DNA of 64,000 nucleotides from contig OZ024742.1 in NCBI GenBank assembly GCA_964016885.1, positions 269,700,001 through 269,764,000 of the forward strand. The letters are read 5' to 3'. Position numbers and translations under genes: made by a program. The notes below the pieces were generated by a model that ran no database searches, was not told the DNA's origin, and saw only the letters and a program-made list of their open reading frames with translations. Shown piece after piece: positions 3,281 to 61,480 of this stretch (the stretch's first letter is position 1; every line of letters starts with the position of its first letter). The stretch comes from Eledone cirrhosa (lineage: Eukaryota).

Positions 3281-3361
<81 letters not shown>

Positions 3362-3365
<4 letters not shown>

Positions 3366-4402
3366 AATATAGACATAGAATATTCGAAAATATTCTGTAT
3401 GTTTATAATAAACATTTTGAAGACCTAATCGCTATAGAATAGAATACGTCACGTATTACAATTATTATTTATTCCAATTTCTAATTTCTGCCGGACCGGC
3501 AACCGCTCTTTCAAACCAGTTCCTGTACACAGCTAAGTATTCTATAAGTCTCTAGCTGTGTCATTCTCGATAAAAGCACTGGATATGTAGTCCTGAAGAT
3601 TTCTAACAAGAATGAAACGCGTAGATTACTTCCCTTGCTTTTATCGAGAATCTAATTGTAATACGTGACGTATTCTATTCTATAGCGATTAGGTCTTCAA
3701 CATGTTTATTATAAACATAAAGAATATTTTCGAATATTCTATGTCTATATTCACATATATATCGCTATTTCAGAGCATTTATTCCAATTTCTAATTTCTG
3801 CCGGACCGGCAACCGCTCTTTCAAACCAGTTCCTGTACACAGCTAAGTATTCTATAAGTCTCTAGCTGTGTCATTCTCGATAAAAGCACTGGATAAGTAG
3901 TCCTGAAGATTTATAACAAGAATGAAACGCGTAGATTACTTCCCTTGCTTTTATCGAGAATCTAATTGTAATACGTGACGTATTCTATTCTATAGCGATT
4001 AGGTCTTCAAAATGTTTATTATAAACATACAGAATATTTTCGAATATTCTATGTCTATATTCACATATATATCGCTATTTCAGAGCATTTATTCCAATTT
4101 CTAATTTCTGCCGGACCGGCAACCGCTCTTTCAAACCAGTTCCTGTACACAGCTAAGTATTCTATAAGTCTCTAGCTGTGTCATTCTCGATAAAAGCACT
4201 GGATATGTAGTCCTGAAGATTTCTAACAAGAATGAAACGCGTAGATTACTTCCCTTGCTTTTATCGAGAATCTAATTGTAATACGTGACGTATTCTATTC
4301 TATAGCGATTAGGTCTTCAAAATGTTTATTATAAACATACAGAATATTTTCGAATATTCAATGTCTATATTCACATATATATCGCTATTTCAGAGCATTT
4401 AT

Positions 4403-4407
<5 letters not shown>
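3362..4407 (+). mobile_element. Retrozyme array A1: 310 bp unit x3 plus a short inverted arm
   Basis: Unit marker attccaa at 3471/3781/4091/4401; inverted arm 3362-3465; HHRs at 3587, 3897, 4207; TA flanks. Confidence 0.9.
3587..3629 (+). ncRNA. Type I hammerhead ribozyme (representative of the 310 bp family)
   Basis: gtagtc CTGAAGA t ttct aaca agaa t GAAA CGCG TA gattac; stem I extends via ttctcgataaaagca/tgcttttatcgagaa. Confidence 0.85.
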
Positions 4408-10680
<6,273 letters not shown>

Positions 10681-13926: not shown

Positions 13927-16531
13927 AGTATGCATGTATACGTACATACATATATGTATACAGACGTACAGTAGCATGCACATATATATATATATATACA
14001 TATATACATACATATGCATACAGGTACACATACATATATGCACGTATCAGTTTAGCGGCGCTTATTATAACGTCGCTTTGTTCGTTTGTAAACAAACTGA
14101 ACAGCCTGAATTTATGCCATACGGTGTTAAGGCAACCACGTCACCTTTTTGTTCAACACTGACACAGGAACGATGTACTAGTTTCAAGCTTGTTAGCTAT
14201 CATCAGCACCGTTTACCCATCTGCCAGATAGTTGAACGTTCGAAAGTATATACTTTCCTTATGAAAATTAACGGCTGAGCAGCCTAATTTGCATATTGAG
14301 TGAGTTAAATCGGTCAGGCATACCGAAAACGATAAATTGAAACAAAATGAAAACGAAATTTCATTTCTCACTCTTAGTATGGCACTTACTTAAATGTAAG
14401 TATGCATGTATACGTACATACATATATGTATACAGACGTACAGTAGCATGCACATATATATATATATATACATATATACATACATATGCATACAGGTACA
14501 CATACATATATGCACGTATCAGTTTAGCGGCGCTTATTATAACGTCGCTTTGTTCGTATGTAAACAAACTGAACAGCCTGAATTTATGCCATACGGTGTT
14601 AAGGCAACCACGTCACCTTTTTGTTCAACACTGACACAGGAACGATGTACTAGTTTCAAGCTTGTTAGCTATCATCAGCACCGTTTACCCATCTGCCAGC
14701 CGTTAATTTTCATAAGGAAAGTATATACTTTCGAACGTTCAACTATCTGGCAGATGGGTAAACGGTGCTGATGATAGCTAACAAGTTTGAAACTAGTACA
14801 TCGTTCCTGTGTCAGTGTTGAACAAAAAGGTGACGTGGTTGCCTTAACACCGTATGGCATAAATTCAGGCTGTTCAGTTTGTTTACAAACGAACAAAGCG
14901 ACGTTATAATAAGCGCCGCTAAACTGATACGTGCATATATGTATGTGTACCTGTATGCATATGTATGTATATATGTATATATATATATATATATGTGCAT
15001 GCTACTGTACGTCTGTATACATATATGTATGTACGTATACATGCATACTTACATTTAAGTAAGTGCCATGCTAAGAGTGAGAAATGAAATTTCGTTTTCA
15101 TTTTGTTTCAATTTATCGTTTTCGGTATGCCTGACCGATTTAACTCACTCAATATGCAAATTAGGCTGCTCAGCCGTTAATTTTCATAAGGAAAGTATAT
15201 ACTTTCGAACGTTCAACTATCTGGCAGATGGGTAAACGGTGCTGATGATAGCTAACAAGCTTGAAACTAGTACATCGTTCCTGTGTCAGTGTTGAACAAA
15301 AAGGTGACGTGGTTGCCTTAACACCGTATGGCATAAATTCAGGCTGTTCAGTTTGTTTACAAACGAACAAAGCGACGTTATAATAAGCGCCGCTAAACTG
15401 ATACGTGCATATATGTATGTGTACCTGTATGCATATGTATGTATATATGTATATATATATATATATGTGCATGCTACTGTACGTCTGTATACATATATGT
15501 ATGTACGTATACATGCATACTTACATTTAAGTAAGTGCCATACTAAGAGTGAGAAATGAAATTTCGTTTTCATTTTGTTTCAATTTATCGTTTTCGGTAT
15601 GCCTGACCGATTTAACTCACTCAATATGCAAATTAGGCTGCTCAGCCGTTAATTTTCATAAGGAAAGTATATACTTTCGAACGTTCAACTATCTGGCAGA
15701 TGGGTAAACGGTGCTGATGATAGCTAACAAGCTTGAAACTAGTACATCGTTCCTGTGTCAGTGTTGAACAAAAAGGTGACGTGGTTGCCTTAACACCGTA
15801 TGGCATAAATTCAGGCTGTTCAGTTTGTTTACAAACGAACAAAGCGACGTTATAATAAGCGCCGCTAAACTGATACGTGCATATATGTATGTGTCCCTGT
15901 ATGCATATGTATGTATATATGTATATATATATATATATGTGCATGCTACTGTACGTCTGTATACATATATGTATGTACGTATACATGCATATTTACATTT
16001 AAGTAAGTGCCATACTAAGAGTGAGAAATGAAATTTCGTTTTCATTTTGTTTCAATTTATCGTTTTCGGTATGCCTGACCGATTTAACTCACTCAATATG
16101 CAAATTAGGCTGCTCAGCCGTTAATTTTCATAAGGAAAGTATATACTTTCGAACGTTCAACTATCTGGAAGATGGGTAAACGGTACTGATGATAGCTAAC
16201 AAGCTTGAAACTAGTACATCGTTCCTGTGTCAGTGTTGAACAAAAGGGTGACGTGGTTGCCTTAACACCGTATGGCATAAATTCAGGCTGTTCAGTTTGT
16301 TTACAAACGAACAAAGCGACGTTATAATAAGCGCCGCTAAACTGATACGTGCATATATGTATGTGTACCTGTATGCATATGTATGTATATATGTATATAT
16401 ATATATATATATGTGCATGCTACTGTACGTCTGTATACATATATGTATGTACGTATACATGCATACTTACATTTAAGTAAGTGCCATACTAAGAGTGAGA
16501 AATGAAATTTCGTTTTCATTTTGTTTCAATT

Positions 16532-16533
<2 letters not shown>
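13922..16533. mobile_element. Retrozyme array B: 472 bp unit, head-to-head arms
   Basis: ~1.6 minus units (HHRs 14169-14213, 14641-14685), junction CAG at 14697-14699, ~3.9 plus units (HHRs 14761, 15235, 15707, 16179); TA flanks. Confidence 0.9.
15235..15279 (+). ncRNA. Type I hammerhead ribozyme (representative of the 472 bp family)
   Basis: aacggtg CTGATGA t agct aaca agct t GAAA CTAG TA catcgtt; stem I extends via gttcaac..ctggca/tgtcag..gttgaac. Confidence 0.88.
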
Positions 16534-16588
<55 letters not shown>

Positions 16589-32997: not shown

Positions 32998-34458
<1,461 letters not shown>

Positions 34459-34637
34459 TGATTGGAAATTTTACCTTTCCTTCGGATTTTAATTTTGACA
34501 CTAATACTCCGTTTTACATCATCTACCTGTTCCCTTGAATGGAATTGGAGATATACTAAAGCGCGGAGAACTTAATATTGCTAATAAAAATTCATTGGAC
34601 CGTTTTGCACAACCAATAATACACCTTACTATATAAC

Positions 34638-34695
<58 letters not shown>

Positions 34696-48915: not shown

Positions 48916-49550
48916 ACTAACGCGGTACCAACACACGCACACACTCACACACAGTGACATTAGAACGGTTGTTTTTGTGTGTGTAACACCGCCACCATCC
49001 TCCGACCTAAAAAAAAGAGACCGGCAGAATACTACTACCAGACGACTATACTACACTGCCAGTACCGAAAAGCCAACATAGATAAATAGTACAATTGACT
49101 GACAGCTAACGCCATCCCATTCCCACAATTAAAATAATTATTTCGACCTCTGCTTGACCACACCGATTCCGCGCGCACCCGCGCTCTGCAGATTACCTCA
49201 ATTAGTCATTAAGAGCGAACAGCAGATGACACGTTCCATTCTTCTCCGACAGATAATCTTCACCCCGGAAAACTCCCAGTTGATGGATGCGAATCCGAAA
49301 TATACGGACAATTAAATCTTTCCCAACGTAACTCTATCTAGTGTTATTATTTTTAGTTTTTACGATCTTTCCTACGTTCCTCTACACACTATACATCTCA
49401 TTCTACATTCCCTTACATCTCTCACTTCACCACTGGATCCTGTTATCAGGAGAATTACCCATCTGCATTGTTGAGGCTTACAAAACGACCAAAAGATGAT
49501 AAATCTTATTATTCCACAAAGCTTCAAGCAAAATTCAATACTCTCTTATA

Positions 49551-49587
<37 letters not shown>

Positions 49588-49589
49588 GA

Positions 49590-50168
49590 TTAAACGAAAT
49601 TTCATTTCTCACTCTTAGTACGGCTGATACCTAAATATAAGCATGTATACGTACATACATATATGTGTACAGGCGCACAGTAGTATGTATATATATGTAT
49701 ACATACATGCACACATATATATATATGTACGTATGGGTTTACCGAACATTTATTATAATGCTCGGATTGTTTGTAAACAAACAGCCCGAAGTATGCCGTA
49801 CAGTGCTCGGCAACCATCGTCACCCCTTTGTTCAACTCTGACACAGGAACGATTTACTAGTTTCAAGCTTATTAGCTATCGTCAGCATCGTATACCTTCC
49901 TGTCAGATGATTGAACGTCTGTAAGTATATTAACGGCTGAGCAGACTAATTTGCATATCGAGTGAGTTAATGGGCCGGGCATACCGAAAACGATAAGTGA
50001 AAAAGAATGAAACGAAATTTCATTTCTCACTCTTAGTACGGCTGATACCTAATATAAGTATGTATATGTACATACACATATGTGTACAGACGCAGAGTAG
50101 TATGTATATATATATATATATACATATTTGCACACACACATATATATATATACGTATGTATATACATA

Positions 50169-52992: not shown

Positions 52993-52994
<2 letters not shown>
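52601..52994 (-). mobile_element. Retrozyme family A' (~315 bp), 1.2 copies
   Basis: Minus HHR-like TTGATGA acac..gtga GAAC CAGATCTG TC agct at 52728-52769 (degenerate). Confidence 0.65.
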
Positions 52995-53028
<34 letters not shown>

Positions 53029-53055
53029 CACATATACACACATATATATATATAT

Positions 53056-53121
<66 letters not shown>

Positions 53122-53805
53122 GGATTTAAATGGATACAGTTCAGTTAAAAGGAATTTATTGACACGTGTTTCAATAACAGTTACATAACCTGAAAACAGC
53201 TGCTATCTACAAAGTATTAATTATGCAGACATTCAATATTTCAGTGTTATTATCAACTGTCATTTCATCAGAATAATTTTATTGAGAACCTGTTTGGTTT
53301 TTATAGAGAATATTAAGAGGGAGGGGTGAAGAATAGTTAAGGGAGTGGATAGAGAATTTTTTTGATAGCAGTGCGAATTTATGGTAGCAGTGAGTAATTA
53401 GATTCCCATCTGTTGTTTTGACATTTTTATAGAATACATTAATTGGCGTTGGTTATTTTTCTAAATCTATAGAAGTATTAGAGATAGTAAAGATATGCAT
53501 GGTTGGTTTTGTGTTTGCACTTAATTAACATACAGACTTAAATTTTTCTTTCAAGTGTACGTATCCGTTCGCCCACACATTCACACACAAACATATATGC
53601 ACACCTCTACAAAATACATACACTCACATACACGTACTTACATGCTCATACCTACATACATATATACCTGCACATATATATATATACATATATATACATA
53701 TATATATGTACATTCATACGCATTCATGTATATACATTTTCATACTCAACTTATCTTCATATACACACGTATAGGCACACACATATATACATACATACTC
53801 CTGTC

Positions 53806-53837
<32 letters not shown>

Positions 53838-54114
53838 AAACTTTAATACATGAATACACATACATCTAACTATACACATCAAACATATATATATATTTAC
53901 TTATTTATATACATTTTCACATATATATATATACATATGGTCGCTTTTAGACACATTCATTATAGCATATTCTCACCTATTCTCATCAGCATATCCTTCC
54001 ATTATTAGTGTGGTAATTTAAGGTTATTAATATACATATATATGTTGAGAAGAGATTGTTTTTATATTTTTCTAACTAGATTGAGGTTTATATAGTTGGG
54101 GGGATGTCCCTCTT

Positions 54115-56429
54115 TTATGTAATATTCAGCTTGTAGTGGGAAAAAAGGGTTTTAGTTCGGTGACGGCAGAATAATGTTCGTTCAATTCTGTTATTAAGCA
54201 ATTTCTTCTTGTGTGTGATTATGTAATAAATCTCAAGATTACACAATTTGCTGAAATTTTGGCTCCTGGAAAAGCTTTGGGTTTTAGCTAATTTCTCCCA
54301 TTTTAGGGTAAACTTTTGATCGCTATCCCTGAGCGTCCAAGCTTTTCTGCTAAAATTGTTACATTTCTTTGGCTCTGGTGTTTTATGGAGTAAGAATGCC
54401 TATATAATCGAGATTTACACGATGTTGCCATTGATCCCACGTAATACCACTCGTTGCCTCCAGATTCAATGGTACACTTATAGATGATATTTTTTTCCAG
54501 GCAGTTATTGCCGAGGGGGCAATTGTCAGGATAGGTGCAGTTACAGTTGTGTACGTTGGTTTTGTAGTTAGGTTTACTCTGGAGTAGTATTGCGAATAAC
54601 TTAGGTGTGGTTTATTTATGTTCTGTAGTGTATTGTCTACTGTTTTTTTGTGTTCTTTGTACTTAAGTTTTTAATGTTTTCGTTTAACCTTCTAGTATTG
54701 ATCTTTTTTATGTGTTATTCGAGGTTTAACGCTGTAGAGTATGACAGTCTTATAGTGGTAGGGTTTAGGATTGTGTGGTATTTGTGTGATGTAGGAATAT
54801 GTCTCTTAACTATTTTAAAGAAGAGTACTGGTAGATTTGTACTAATGGAACTATTGTATTCAGGGTTATACCATAAGTACTCTTTGCATCGCTTTCTATT
54901 AGTTTTGTTTGTTGGTTTACTGGTGTGTATACTATGGTAGTAAGTGTGGTTTGGTGTTGTGTTATTATATCTACCTATGTGGGATTTATTTTGGGTGTTT
55001 TGATTGTTTTCATATACTCTATTTTGTTGAGGTAGCCTGCTTTACTAAGGGCGTTATCGTAGTACTCGGCGTGTTCCTTAAATACTTGTTTGTTAGAAGA
55101 TAGACCCGAGATTCTAAGGGAAATATTTTTAGGGATAGATTTAATTATAGAGATGGGGTAGTTAGACCCAACATTTACGTACTTGAGATTTTCATTCAAC
55201 TTATGAAACGGTTTAATCAGACCAGAGTTTAAATTGAGTGTGACATCCAGGAAGTTAACTACTTTAAGGTTGTATTCATATGTTATAGTTAGTCCTATTT
55301 CAAGTAGTAGTTTTCTTATATCTTTGCGTAGTTTTTCTAGTTTTTGGTTAGTTAGGTTTTTAACTAGGAGGAGAACATCGCGCGGTATATTCCACCGTGG
55401 AGATAACTGAATTTTTCCTGGAGTCTAAAGGCGATCAATAACCCCACAATATCAGTTATTTCCGCCGAATCGTTAGAGCCCATTGTTATGTCACAGTTAG
55501 AGGGTCTATTTTTACGAACCCAGTAACTGTTCTCAAATTTGACTATAGTTTTCCTAGCTTCTTAATTTCTTCGTTTGTAAGGTCAGAGTTATCCTTAGCA
55601 AACTTAATGGCTCTATTCAGAGTTTCAGGTGATATCGATGAGTAATATTCGTCGATATCAAACTGGATAAACTTAGATTTATTTTTATTGCTAATGCTAT
55701 TAAACCATCTTATTGCTTCTTGGGTCTTCCCCCAGAGTTTAATGTTAACCTTAGCCTTAATTTGGGGGATGATTCTATCTAAGTTATATTTGCTTATTTT
55801 ACCTATATCTGATTTAGAGGGGCAGATTAATCTAATTTTAGGGTCATTATCAAAGTTTACCTTATGGTCCTTAAGATTGAAGGTGGGTACCGCCGGTAAG
55901 AGTGGTCCTGTCCTATCTTCGATTCCGAGATTTGTCACGATTTCGCATGCCTCATCATTGATGTGCTTAAGTGTTACTTCACTCGTTTTTCTTTATTTGT
56001 ATGTAATTCTTTTCGAATGAAGGTGTTGTATGTCGTGTAGTCCATAGTAAACATGTTAGATGTTTTGTCCGCTTTTACTACAATTCCTTTGGTGTTTTTA
56101 AGGTCATCCAGTAGTTTTTTAATATCTTTCTGCAGTTTGTTGTTGGTGTTACGTCCTTTGAATTTAATTTTAAGGATTAAGTCCATAAGGTCCTGCTCAA
56201 ATGCATCTAATAGTGGGTTAGTGGGTGGGTTTTTACACGTTTTAAAACACAATTTGTTGTTTACACCACTTTCTGATGGTGAGTTCATACGGCTTCTATC
56301 ATAGTGGAGCGTTTTCCACCTGACACGTCGAATGAATTCATTTGTTTTTTGTATCATACTCAATAAGTATTCCTTTCTACCTTGGGTTGGTATGTTTTTG
56401 AGTGACATATCCAGGTAGTGCTTTTCCAT
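54115..56429 (-). pseudogene. PLE ORF: RT, CxCx5Cx5C linker, GIY-YIG (frameshifted)
   Basis: SLKNIP, KADKTSN, LKDHKVNF..PKIRLICPSKS, FIQFDIDEYYSSI, TMGSNDSAEI, CNCTYPDNCPLGNNCL, IIYKC...YYVGS. Confidence 0.9.
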
Positions 56430-56549
56430 TGTTGTGGTTACGTTTGCTGTGTGTGTTGCTCAACTTTACAGGAGGTAAATATATAGTATTTTCCGTAGTG
56501 TTGTCCCTCTTAATATTCTCTATAAAAACCAAACAGGTTCTCAATAAAA

Positions 56550-56670
56550 TTATTCTGATGAAATGACAGTTGATAATAACACTGAAATATTGAATGTCTG
56601 CATAATTAATACTTTGTAGATAGAAGCTGTTTTCAGGTTATGTAACTGTTATTGAAACACGTGTCAATAA
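56550..56670 (+). ncRNA. pLTR type I hammerhead with enlarged loop II
   Basis: ttatt CTGATGA aatgacagtt [~72 nt] aactgttatt GAAA CACGTG TC aataa; mirror copy 53156-53276 (-). Confidence 0.82.
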
Positions 56671-56814
56671 ATTCCTTTTAACTGAACTGTATCCATTTAA
56701 ATCCTTCTATTTTCTCCGGATTACTTTTGAAACTACAACTGGAACAGTCGAGCAAACTCTACGTGAGGTGTCCATCTACTGTGTGTAATATTCATATTAC
56801 AACACTACGGAAAA

Positions 56815-56859
<45 letters not shown>

Positions 56860-56862
<3 letters not shown>

Positions 56863-57727
56863 TACCGAGAATCGTATTTAAGCTCAGGAATTAACGAAAA
56901 ACAACTTCCGAGATGTGTGGCAAGCGCTCGATGATTCATATGAATCAGAGCTGCAACATACGTTAAGGGCCAAATACACTGAGATGGTGGTTAAACTAAT
57001 CATCCGCACAGCCAAAAAAAAACGACCAAGTAATTCGGGTGAAACAATAAAAATATATGTGATTGAAAATTTACCCAGACCCCTGGACGGTTTGTAAAAT
57101 CTAGTATTTGGGTTCCTGCGACTCCATAAATCAAATAATGTCCGCTTACATAAAGAATGTTAGGCCTCTGGTAAGATGATTGAACAAGGAAGCCGTATTA
57201 TCAACGGGTTTTTGCTCAAATGCTATACATAAGTGTGACTATTACTGACCCCACGTGGAGTTCAGCAAGGGAGCCAACACTTATATTAGGCGAATGAATT
57301 CAGTGTATAATATTGCGAGAATGCAAAATATCACAAATCGAATAAAGCTCTCGACAGAATGGTTAAATATAACAAAGCTATTCAACAGTCAATAGAATCA
57401 ACTAAAAAAATCAATAAAATTAACTGGTCAATAGCTAGACTCTGGAGATTAATACAAATATCAATTAGCGAGAATCGTATTTCAGCTCAGGAATTAACGA
57501 AAAACAACTTCCGAGACGTGTGGCAAGCGCTCGATGGTCCATATGAATCAGAGCTACAACATACGTTAAGGGCCAAACACACTGAGATGGTGGTTAAACT
57601 AATCATCCGCACAGCCAAAAAAAACGACAAAGTAATTCGGGTCAAACAATAAAAATATATGTGATTGAAAATTTACCCGGACCCCTGGACGGTTAGTAAC
57701 ATCCAATATTTGGGTTCCTGCGACTCT
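56860..57727. repeat. ~603 bp tandem repeat, 1.4 copies, between TA runs
   Basis: 56861-57125 repeated at 57464-57727; no HHR recognised. Confidence 0.8.
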
Positions 57728-58276: not shown

Positions 58277-59352
58277 TATTTTGACATCGGTTAATAGAGG
58301 GAGAGGGGAGGGATTAAGAGCAAGTGACTCAGATCGACAACAAAGTGACACAAGAGACGAATACGATTAAGTGAATATAAAATAATCAAAACCTATCAGC
58401 CCAATTTGTTTCCTAGATTACAATTAAAATTTCTTAGTAAACGAACAAATGTAACATCATGTAGAACATTATTAACACAACTACTACTGTATACTACATT
58501 GTACACAGCAGGCGTGAGAGTGACGGTAAAACGAATAACAATAGCAGTATTACATCAACAATTGTCTCTAAATTTGCAAATGGCCAGCAATTTGAAGTAA
58601 AGGAGAAAGTTGATTAAACTGAGACCAGTGCATGAATGGTATTTTATTTTTGTCGACTTCAGAATGATGAAAGGCAAATACTAATATAGTTTTGCAAGGT
58701 TTCTCTAACAATTGGTGGCTAGGTGAAGCATTAATTGACATCAGATCCGTACCTGATATCAGCGGATCAATATATCGCGTAGGATTCTGGCAGTACCAAT
58801 GAAGGTAGAAATTTGGGCGCTGTCAATTAAGTCAGGGACCGCATTGTTTTTTAATGGAAAACGTTAGGCGTTTAGTTACCGTGCCTAGCGCCCCACAGAC
58901 GATTGGTCCAAATTCTATCTCTCCATGTTGCTCAGTTCTAATAACGCCTTCAATGTCTGCAAACGTATTCATTTTTTCATTTTGTTTTCAGCCACATTTT
59001 GGGCTTAAGGGACCTCAATACCAATTAAAGGACATTTAAAGTTTGTTATTGTTCTCACAACAATATCAGTGTTTTTGAATTGGACATTGTGATGTGTTGA
59101 TCTCGAAGTCCCAAAATAACTCAACACCCACTCGAGAGATAGGATTCAAGCGGAGTATATTCATACCACAGACATTGCGTTTCGGTGTTGTATTGTTTGC
59201 ACAACTCCCAATGAACTATTTTTGCTAAAAGATCATGCCGGATATAGTACCATCATTTTGCTAATTCCCCACATCCACTAGCAATATTGTCCAACGATGT
59301 CAGATTTTGCCTAAGTGAATCTGGGTGCCTGTACTTCAGCGGCAGTAATAAA

Positions 59353-59384
<32 letters not shown>

Positions 59385-59397
59385 CAACAATAATGCT

Positions 59398-61480
59398 TTC
59401 TTTATTAACCACAAGGGTTGACAGAAAGTATAACATTAAGGAGAGGAGAGGACAATGCTCGACGGTACAAATGGGCATTTCTGCGTGAAAATAACAAAAT
59501 CAGAGGATGTAAAAAAGAAACAAAAGAAATGAAAAATTCCCCAATAGTGGGGAAAATTTCGAGGGTCGCTGGAGGAGAAAGCCCGCCACTCGGGCCCATT
59601 GAACGGCTTTCGTCCCCTCGTGTCTGAGAGCACGCACCCTAGCTCTAACAAAGCACCCTTCGTGCTTTGCATTGAAGAATTGGTCAAGGGCCAATTTCGC
59701 CGCAAGTACGTCGGTCGCGATGCCTTTACTAAGTGCCTCGTCTAATTTTCTAACTAGTTCTCCCTCTACTCTATTTTTCTTGATTGCTAAAGCTTTAATA
59801 AATCTAATGGACACTATTCTAATCGCTGTTTTAAAAGCAAGCCACCATTTGCTGTTGATGATGGGCCCCATCAACGCCCGCTTAACTAGTCCGCTAATCC
59901 GGTCGCTGTTAATGACGCTTTTAGCTTCCAGTAGCCGGGTCCCTGTCTATGAAGCCTATCTAAGTCAACCTCATAGATCACAAATTTGTGGACCGTGTAG
60001 TCGACTATTTTGAAGTGTGGACAGCCTAAGCTTAACCTATCTATTTCCCTACAAAATACCCTATCTAGATATGATCTGGATGACCCTATGCGATTTGTCC
60101 AAGTCCACATTGGCACATTCGGGAAAATCAGACGGTACCTGTCAGACAGTTGAAACCGTCTGATCGGGTTTTCGAGGCTTTTACACAATCCTCCCCTATC
60201 CGCTAATCCCACAGAGTCCCAGCGTACATCTAAGATCCCGTTCCAGTCACCCACTAACACTAAAGAGCGGGACGTTCCAAGAAAGGTCTCCAGACGTCCG
60301 AATTAATCAGGCCGCCCTGCTACTGTCGGGGCATAGACGGCCACTAGACTGAATGCTTTCCCGTCTCCACTGGTCATGTCTAGCACTAACAAATTACCTT
60401 CTGGGTCCAGGAAGATGGCCCGTATGGCGAGATCCAAACCTCTCCGAAAAAAGCACAGCGACACCTCCCCCCCCCCCATCATCGGGGACGGCTGGGAGAT
60501 GCTTACACATCGTAACCGCCGAAGATCGGTGCGAAGGCCCGTGCTTCGGAGATTCAGGTCTCGCTGATGGCCACCACATCTATGTTTAGTGACCTGAGGT
60601 CGTTGAGAAGGTCGCCCTGCCTCCATGACGACCCAAGGCCACGCGCATTTATGCTGCCTATTCTGAGTGAGGTCATGTTGAAAAGGAGTGGAAAAAGATG
60701 GGAAAGACCACTTACCTCACTTCTCGTAGAGGAAGAATGGTTCTTCCATCCTTCTCACTGCCTGTGGCCTCCTCCGGAAAGATGTCCTTATAAATCCTCC
60801 TGGAAAGTGTTTATGGGAAGTCTCCGATGCCTTTGGGGAATTTCAATTTTAGTGTCGTGTACGTTTTCTGCGTGATGCGAGTCATTTGTATCTGTGGAAG
60901 TGGTGTGAATTTTTGGGGTATTGTGCAGTCTTATTCTGTGATGCTGTGTTGTGTAGGATGTAGTGTAATAATTGGTTGTTGTTCAAATTTAATGTTGTGT
61001 AGTGTGTATCGTTTTGGTTGTTTTGTTTTGTTTGCGTTTGTTGTGGGTTTGGTTTTGTTTCGCTTTTTGTTTATTTTTGTGGTGTTGGTGATGGTGGTGT
61101 TGGGGTTAATGATGGTGATGGTGTTGGTTTTTGTGGTGATGCGGCTGGGGATGCTGGTGTGGATGGTGCATAGCTGTCTTTACGTTTTTGTTTATTTTCT
61201 TATTTGTTTACCCCTGCATTTTGTTTTTGTAGAGCGAATGAAGAGGAGTTTTTCTTTTTGGGGTTCTTTTTTTTTCTTTTTTTTCTGATACGTTTTACCA
61301 CTCCTCCTATCTCCAGTTGCGATAGGTGAGGGAGTGGAAAAATCCTCCACATGCCTTGGTTTTGGTGGTGGATGGTGGAGGCGCTGGGGCTATTTCTGGC
61401 GCGGTGGGTGGTGGTGGTGTTGGTTTTGCTACTGTTGCCGGCGTCGTACTGCTACAGTTGCTACTGGTACCGTCCTACAC
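59398..61480 (-). mobile_element. Tx1/L1-like LINE, internally deleted (ORF1 end, APE endonuclease, 3' UTR)
   Basis: SINARGL, AVYAP, VGDWN, SYLDRVF, YWKL; jumps at ~59580 to a 3' UTR with AATAAA next to an (AAT)n tract. Confidence 0.8.

What the first reader, a model, noticed from the sequence alone, without database searches (positions are those of the whole stretch)
53117..56819. Candidate autonomous partner: Hydra-type PLE whose tail stops at an internal TATATA
Seen: the tail ...acaacactacggaaaatactata merges with the TA flank (56819). The same sequence on the minus arm (from 56503) continues tatatatttacc... to the ATG at 56429. So the sequence after the pLTR is the 5' UTR (circular or tandem topology), and the insertion ends where the RNA itself reads UAUAUA. 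Inference: RNA-target pairing helps direct (TA)n insertion. This copy is frameshifted, so an active master would be elsewhere.
Basis: partly seen in the sequence, partly recalled or inferred. Interest (0 to 1): 0.7.

Follow-up and report, generated by a model that had tools for sequence, protein, structure and literature searches.

The report
Two-tailed Hydra-type Penelope retrotransposon insertion
This is a broken copy of a recently spreading Penelope-type jumping gene whose mirror-image insertions ended once at a short site and once at a long site in every pair we could call, which likely means one RNA is copied twice, once from each side of a cut in a TA repeat.

Summary
Window 53119-56819 is a frameshifted Hydra-clade Penelope-like element (Hydra protein motifs, TA targets). 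Near-identical intact 773-aa copies exist elsewhere in the genome. The right arm ends at the internal TATATAT (site B). The left arm ends 110 nt earlier at a 3-nt TAT (site A). Exact-pattern counts give 1540 A-tails and 1397 B-tails. On contig C1, 47 of 47 outward-facing pairs are A+B. The arms share rare variants (50 of 51), and in many pairs neither arm can be a copy of the other. The one-each rule also holds in a second Hydra family (8 of 8) and in the 310-bp ribozyme arrays (17 of 17 resolved). Best model (0.6): one RNA is primed at two fixed internal sites from the two sides of a break. Pairing with TA does not choose the site: most B-tails offer 5 nt, and the long internal TA run is almost unused. 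Partnership with the window's ribozyme arrays is unsupported. A one-sided tail is already in the literature, and this scan noted the long/short rule before on other DNA of this genome.

The parts
52993..53118 (.). Left (TA)n target tract
53116..53119 (-). Site A: end of the long arm (...CCTTC-TAT, 3-nt overlap with the TA tract; read-through continues TTTCTCC)
53116..53322 (-). 3' pseudo-LTR of the long arm, 206 of 207 nt identical to the inverted arm
53226..53271 (-). Hammerhead-like core (CTGATGA...GAAA); stem I mispaired by eye; no Rfam hit
53323..54114 (-). 3' UTR with an internal TA/TG-rich tract (about 53576-53940; (TA)13 at 53812-53837) that is part of the element and rarely an end
54115..56429 (-). 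Broken RT + C-terminal GIY-YIG ORF (intact relatives 773 aa) with RWK, DKT, CxCx5C, CxxC..E, N..CxH and no CCHH
56430..56503 (-). 5' UTR of the long arm, with the read-through form of site B (TATATAT at 56485-56479), predicted to sit in a hairpin loop
56504..56710 (+). Inverted arm: pseudo-LTR, joined head to head to the long arm with a 1-nt overlap; hammerhead-like core at 56555-56600
56711..56817 (+). The tail: sequence between sites A and B (110 nt), present on this arm only
56817..56824 (+). Site B: end of the short arm (...AAATAC-TATATAT, 7-nt overlap here, 5 nt in the commoner variant)
56818..56859 (.). Right (TA)21 target tract

Best explanation
This is a decayed insertion of a Hydra-clade Penelope-like retrotransposon, made of two head-to-head arms that end at two different fixed sites (A and B, 110 nt apart) and likely made when one element RNA was reverse-transcribed twice, once from each DNA end of a cut in a (TA)n repeat. 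Shown: two discrete ends, the one-each rule, variants shared by the two arms, TA targets, short overlaps at the inversion joint. Inferred: the GIY-YIG domain cuts both strands of (TA)n. The RT, possibly as a dimer, starts one DNA end at site A and the other at site B. The B-primed copy displaces the A-primed copy where they overlap, and the two cDNA 3' ends are joined through a few matching bases. The sites are likely chosen by the protein or by RNA shape; the 3-5 TA bases would at most steady the primer. One-armed copies would result when only one end is primed.
For: Family 1: 99 A and 100 B tails on C1 1-177.7 Mb form 47 outward pairs within 12 kb. All 47 are A+B (46 independent; one is a local duplicate), against about 50% expected if sites were independent, p about 1e-14. 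Of 40 refetched 'unpaired' tails, 17 were also A+B, 20 single-tailed (14 A, 6 B), 2 were B plus an arm ending elsewhere, 1 unmapped; none was A+A or B+B. One template: in 32 pairs with overlapping arms, minor alleles are on both arms in 50 of 51 cases (shuffled mean 5.5%, maximum 45%). Two primings: arms do not overlap at all in several pairs (e.g. L231, L268). Among 20 refetched pairs the A arm reaches further 5' in 9 and the B arm in 9 (1 tie, 1 unresolved; my count). 28 of 38 inversion joints show a 1-10 nt BLAST overlap (no chance control). Generality: second Hydra family, sites about 70 nt apart, 8 of 8 positional pairs one-each; 11 of 20 fetched downstream tails had the opposite upstream tail and none a second downstream tail. 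310-bp arrays: 17 of 20 resolved, all 17 one-each. In vitro, Poseidon protein cuts and extends both strands, starts at two internal RNA sites that match the genomic tail, and is predicted to be a dimer (PMC11167929).
Against: No biochemistry here. The Poseidon study saw no difference in start site between top and bottom strands in vitro, and found that ribozyme cleavage is not needed. Shared variants could also come from gene conversion between arms or from two RNAs of one source locus. Local folds are no stronger than shuffles (z -0.64 to 1.49), so the RNA signal for the two sites is not identified. No shared motif across families was seen beyond TA. Which site is primed first is not shown; one-armed B copies exist (6 of 20 refetched B tails).
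Confidence: 0.6

Rival explanations
1. RNA-target base pairing at UAUAUA chooses the start site and directs insertion into (TA)n.
For: Site B is one of only two TA runs of 5 nt or more in the 420 nt around the ends (2.4% of positions). One end of the 310-bp unit lies at or just upstream of an 8-nt TA run. All six sites in three families touch at least 2 nt of TA.
Against: Site A has 3 nt (17% of the region lies in such runs) and is as common as B. The longest internal TA run is nearly unused. In family 2, 12 of 24 distinct tails do not use the TATA on offer. The downstream 310-bp site has 2 nt. Poseidon starts at sites not homologous to the target. Pairing alone cannot give a one-each rule.
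Confidence: 0.15
2. Both ends are primed at one site (B) and the tail is removed from one arm by endonuclease cutting or repair ('EN-mediated resolution', PMC8557442).
For: It gives one tail per insertion directly, and it is the published guess.
Against: It needs a precise cut at A in exactly one arm and rejoining to (TA)n. One-armed A copies outnumber one-armed B copies (14 vs 6). Poseidon uses both sites as RT starts in vitro.
Confidence: 0.12
3. Two RNAs from one source locus, held by an asymmetric protein dimer, each primed at a different site.
For: It fits the one-each rule and long overlapping arms without strand displacement (arms overlap by over 1 kb in L185, L189).
Against: Many intact source copies exist, so mixed arms would be expected unless assembly is strictly in cis; 50 of 51 minor alleles are shared.
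Confidence: 0.1
4. One cDNA folds back and self-primes to make the inverted arm (related to the self-priming model of PMC3846280).
For: A few joints are near-perfect fold-backs (L248, L270), and the arms are near identical.
Against: Non-overlapping arms, and pairs like the window's in which the short arm holds tail sequence absent from the long arm.
Confidence: 0.03

Closest known systems
Hydra clade of C-terminal EN+ Penelope-like elements (Craig et al. 2021, PMC8557442; sections 11 and 15, passages, supplement parts 1, 2, 52 seen)
   Same: Single RT + C-terminal GIY-YIG ORF; RWK, DKT, CxCx5C linker, CxxC and CxH around E and N, no CCHH; (TA)n targets. A Hydra family from Octopus bimaculoides is listed there.
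   Different: Unit of 3.5-3.6 kb (they say generally under 3 kb) because of a microsatellite-rich 3' UTR. Hammerhead degenerate rather than canonical. Its ribozyme context differs by eye from the listed Hydra-1_Obim.
Typical PLE inverted insertion with a one-sided 30-40-bp tail (PMC8557442 Fig. 2 legend; PMC3846280 passages)
   Same: 5'-truncated inverted arm joined head to head; tail on one end only.
   Different: The tail is 110-113 nt. The asymmetry is strict here (47 of 47) rather than 'often' or 'optional', and both arms trace to one source.
Poseidon PAc of Anolis in vitro (Frangieh et al. 2024, PMC11167929; parts 1-2 of 4 read)
   Same: Two internal RT start sites bounding the tail; both DNA strands cut and extended; predicted loop location.
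   Different: Different clade. They saw no strand asymmetry of start site in vitro and no homology to the target; here each insertion uses each site once and the sites overlap 3-7 nt of TA.
L1 twin priming (recalled, not from a call)
   Same: Two target ends prime on one RNA; inverted arms joined by microhomology.
   Different: In L1 the second primer lands at a variable internal site and the arms do not overlap. Here both sites are fixed and the arms usually overlap.

Membership tests
Hydra clade PLE | Single ORF, RT with C-terminal GIY-YIG endonuclease | tested here: met
   773-aa ORF in L148 with IIY..YVG, R, E, N at the C-terminus, read by eye. Pfam gave no significant hit on the window's fragments.
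Hydra clade PLE | RWK motif; DKG changed to DKT | tested here: met
   RRVRWK and ADKTS in the window's own frame and in L148
Hydra clade PLE | CxCx5C linker; CxxC and CxH around conserved E and N; no CCHH | tested here: met
   CNCTYPDNC, CKLCNLE, CRH; absence of CCHH judged by eye
Hydra clade PLE | Insertion into (TA)n | tested here: met
   Both window flanks; TA also at 9 of 14 5'-truncated ends of one-armed A copies (my count), so the tracts pre-exist
Hydra clade PLE | Canonical hammerhead ribozyme | tested here: inconclusive
   The core and a stem III are present in the commonest variant, but stem I is mispaired by eye; no Rfam hit. Rfam also missed the window's well-formed 310/472-bp hammerheads, so the blank is weak.
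Hydra clade PLE | Short (generally under 3 kb) | tested here: not met
   Unit 3471-3578 nt. The paper gives this as a tendency, not a rule.
Hydra clade PLE | RT groups with named Hydra references, apart from Neptune/Poseidon | tested here: inconclusive
   Quick tree of 54 rows: the family nests among unnamed DKT/RWK/CxCx5C homologs and two other families of this genome, far from a CCHH-type group (SH-aLRT 100). No named Hydra, Neptune or Poseidon references were in the tree; the 'Neptune-like' label is mine. Only 34 of 120 listed homologs and 16 of 61 outgroup hits were used.
Hydra clade PLE | No insertion-in-fingers domain | not tested
   Not examined
Autonomous partner of the window's 310/472/422-bp hammerhead arrays | Shared pLTR or 3' sequence | tested here: not met
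   No match better than E about 1 outside low-complexity sequence; the two other Hydra families show only bystander matches
Autonomous partner of the window's 310/472/422-bp hammerhead arrays | Same insertion footprint | tested here: met
   310-bp arrays end once at each of two sites in 17 of 17 resolved cases. This points to PLE machinery, not to this family.

The most novel reading that the evidence does not exclude
Inverted PLE insertions are made by an obligatory, asymmetric double priming: one RNA carries two fixed start sites, and each end of the cut target takes exactly one. This would join the 'optional' tail, the inverted pLTR and the two in vitro start sites into one rule shared by autonomous Hydra families and non-coding ribozyme arrays.
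Probability: 0.55. Interest if true: 0.7.

Novelty: new member of a known kind. Interest (0 to 1): 0.47.

Why it matters
How Penelope-like elements make their inverted structures and one-sided tails is called open in the literature (PMC8557442, section 15). A recently active Hydra family with thousands of copies turns a qualitative remark into a strict, counted rule and ties both arms to one source. It gives exact RNA sites and intact proteins for a direct test. The element itself is an ordinary member of a described clade.

Tried and rejected
1) Telomerase-like repeat addition at site A. 82 A-tails carry extra CT units; in 30 inspected they run 1-35 units and the resolved opposite ends lack CT/AG. 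But 44 of 172 unrelated TA-tract borders ending in C also carry (CT)2+ (a few long family tails fall in that class), so host slippage suffices. Not supported. 2) RNA 5' end fixed by ribozyme cleavage or a start site: 282 distinct arm 5' ends show no sharp hotspot (largest 5 at one base). 3) Stable hairpins at the sites: both fall in predicted loops, but folding is no better than shuffles. 4) Partner of the ribozyme arrays: no similarity. 5) PDB profile search: 0 hits. Pfam on fragments: none significant. Rfam: only microsatellite-driven miRNA noise. 7) Named reference sequences in the Craig supplement were seen but not used in a tree. 8) In one search the end-picker miscalled L256 as single-tailed; its B hit is in the listing and it is A+B. 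9) Literature searches found the qualitative one-sided tail but no paper counting a strict one-each rule. Subscription papers and the bioRxiv supplement were not visible.

Full report
Anatomy. The insertion spans 53119-56817 between two TA tracts. On the minus strand it has a 5' UTR (56503-56430), a broken ORF (56429-54115), a 3' UTR with an internal TA/TG-rich tract, and a pLTR ending at 53116-53119. On the plus strand, 56504-56824 is a second arm pointing the other way: 207 nt of pLTR (206 identical), then 110 nt that run on into the first 25-29 nt of the 5' UTR. So both outer ends are 3' ends. The left one stops at TTC-TAT (site A).

Identity. A search with a long ORF from a related copy returned 73 scored matches, about 40 of them with a stop-free 785-codon frame (my count). 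14 of 25 loci (L146-L170) hold a complete 773-aa ORF, median divergence 0.39%, so the family spread recently. The window copy is 95.9% identical, with 7 frameshifts and at least one stop. The protein has the Hydra features of Craig et al. (section 11): RWK, DKT, CxCx5C, CxxC..E, N..CxH, no CCHH. A quick tree places it among such homologs and far from a CCHH-type PLE group, but without named references. The hammerhead core is present but stem I is mispaired by eye. The unit is longer than usual for Hydra. The host is likely a cephalopod (inference from homolog names).

Tail ends. The first search was biased towards B, so I used queries upstream of the ends. Of 30 loci, 15 end at A, 10 at B, 4 are interrupted by one shared insert, 1 ends elsewhere. 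Of another 30, 20 end at A, 6 at B, 4 elsewhere, 2 of them inside the internal TA tract. Both sets include the window itself and a few local duplicates. Exact patterns give 1540 A-tails and 1397 B-tails, controls 0.

The one-each rule. Among the listed tails on C1 up to 177.7 Mb (99 A, 100 B), 47 outward-facing pairs lie within 12 kb and all 47 are A+B. Of the 105 unpaired tails I refetched 40: 17 were A+B with a variant partner, 20 single-tailed, 2 had an arm ending elsewhere, 1 was unmapped, and none was A+A or B+B. A second Hydra family (705 aa) has two sites about 70 nt apart and 8 of 8 pairs are one-each. The 310-bp ribozyme arrays do the same in 17 of 17 resolved cases out of 20. So do both 310-bp arrays in the window (3355/4408 and 5331/9348, where two rows are in reverse-strand coordinates).

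One source, two primings. In 32 pairs whose arms overlap, the arms differ at 24 of 9927 positions (0.24%, against a median 0.5% between insertions) and share 50 of 51 minor alleles. Yet some pairs have arms that do not overlap, and either arm may be the longer, so one arm is not simply a fold-back copy of the other. Joints mostly show 1-10 nt overlaps (28 of 38; BLAST overlaps, no control). Gene conversion between arms is not excluded.

Pairing with the target. Site B is a TA run above chance, but it is 5 nt in 91 of 100 listed tails and site A is 3 nt. The far longer internal run is almost never an end. In family 2 half of the distinct tails ignore the TATA on offer. Pairing may steady the primer; it does not explain the site choice or the one-each rule. 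TA preference more likely comes from the endonuclease and its linker (proposed in PMC8557442; untested here).

Partner claim. The 310-, 472- and 422-bp arrays share no sequence with this family or with the two other Hydra families found. Their footprint points to PLE machinery, but which family moves them is open.

What is known. [quoted passage not shown] Two internal RT starts bounding the tail are shown for Poseidon, without strand asymmetry in vitro (PMC11167929). Animal retrozymes are argued to be non-autonomous PLE derivatives (10.64898/2026.07.22.740005; part 1 of 5 read). Seven paper searches found no count of a strict rule. Unreviewed notes of this scan report the same long/short pairing on other DNA of this genome. 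I reached my reading before seeing them, and they are not independent support.

Verdict. A new family of a known clade, with a real and strict insertion rule that sharpens a known oddity and makes an open mechanism testable. Hydra membership about 0.9; two-site priming on one RNA 0.6; pairing as the director 0.15. Interest 0.47.

Noticed in passing
window 3355-4408 and 5331-9348: Two inverted arrays of a 310-bp hammerhead unit in TA tracts, each ending once at each of two unit sites; 975 exact downstream-site tails genome-wide.
   Followed up: yes
window about 14016-16534, 33458-34640, 49550-49950, 1643-2683: 472-bp and related 422-bp hammerhead units in TA tracts; ends seen at unit position 356 and at 234-294.
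   Followed up: partly
L271-L299 (e.g. L277:1486-3600) and L300: Two further Hydra-type families (about 705 and 700 aa). The first has two hammerhead cores per unit, and 9 of its 24 distinct downstream tails carry CA not in the read-through sequence.
   Followed up: partly
L128:279-3800 (minus): A CCHH-type C-terminal-endonuclease PLE inserted in a TA run inside a family-1 ORF, giving a chance 962-codon fused frame.
   Followed up: partly
L341-L370: About 5% of site-A tails have (CT)1-35 between tail and (TA)n; host slippage is enough to explain it.
   Followed up: yes
L034, L039, L044, L045: The same short repeat interrupts the pLTR at one position in four copies, just 3' of the hammerhead core: a subfamily that spread with the insert, or a hotspot.
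   Followed up: no
G000 matches (e.g. C1:437200456-437213154): A 784-codon subfamily occurs in tandems of up to four units about 3530 nt apart.
   Followed up: no
window 56860-57720: Direct duplication of about 600 nt right of the insertion (56860-57120 resembles 57452-57700).
   Followed up: no
window about 58600-61200 (minus): Looks by eye like a decayed LINE-type element.
   Followed up: no
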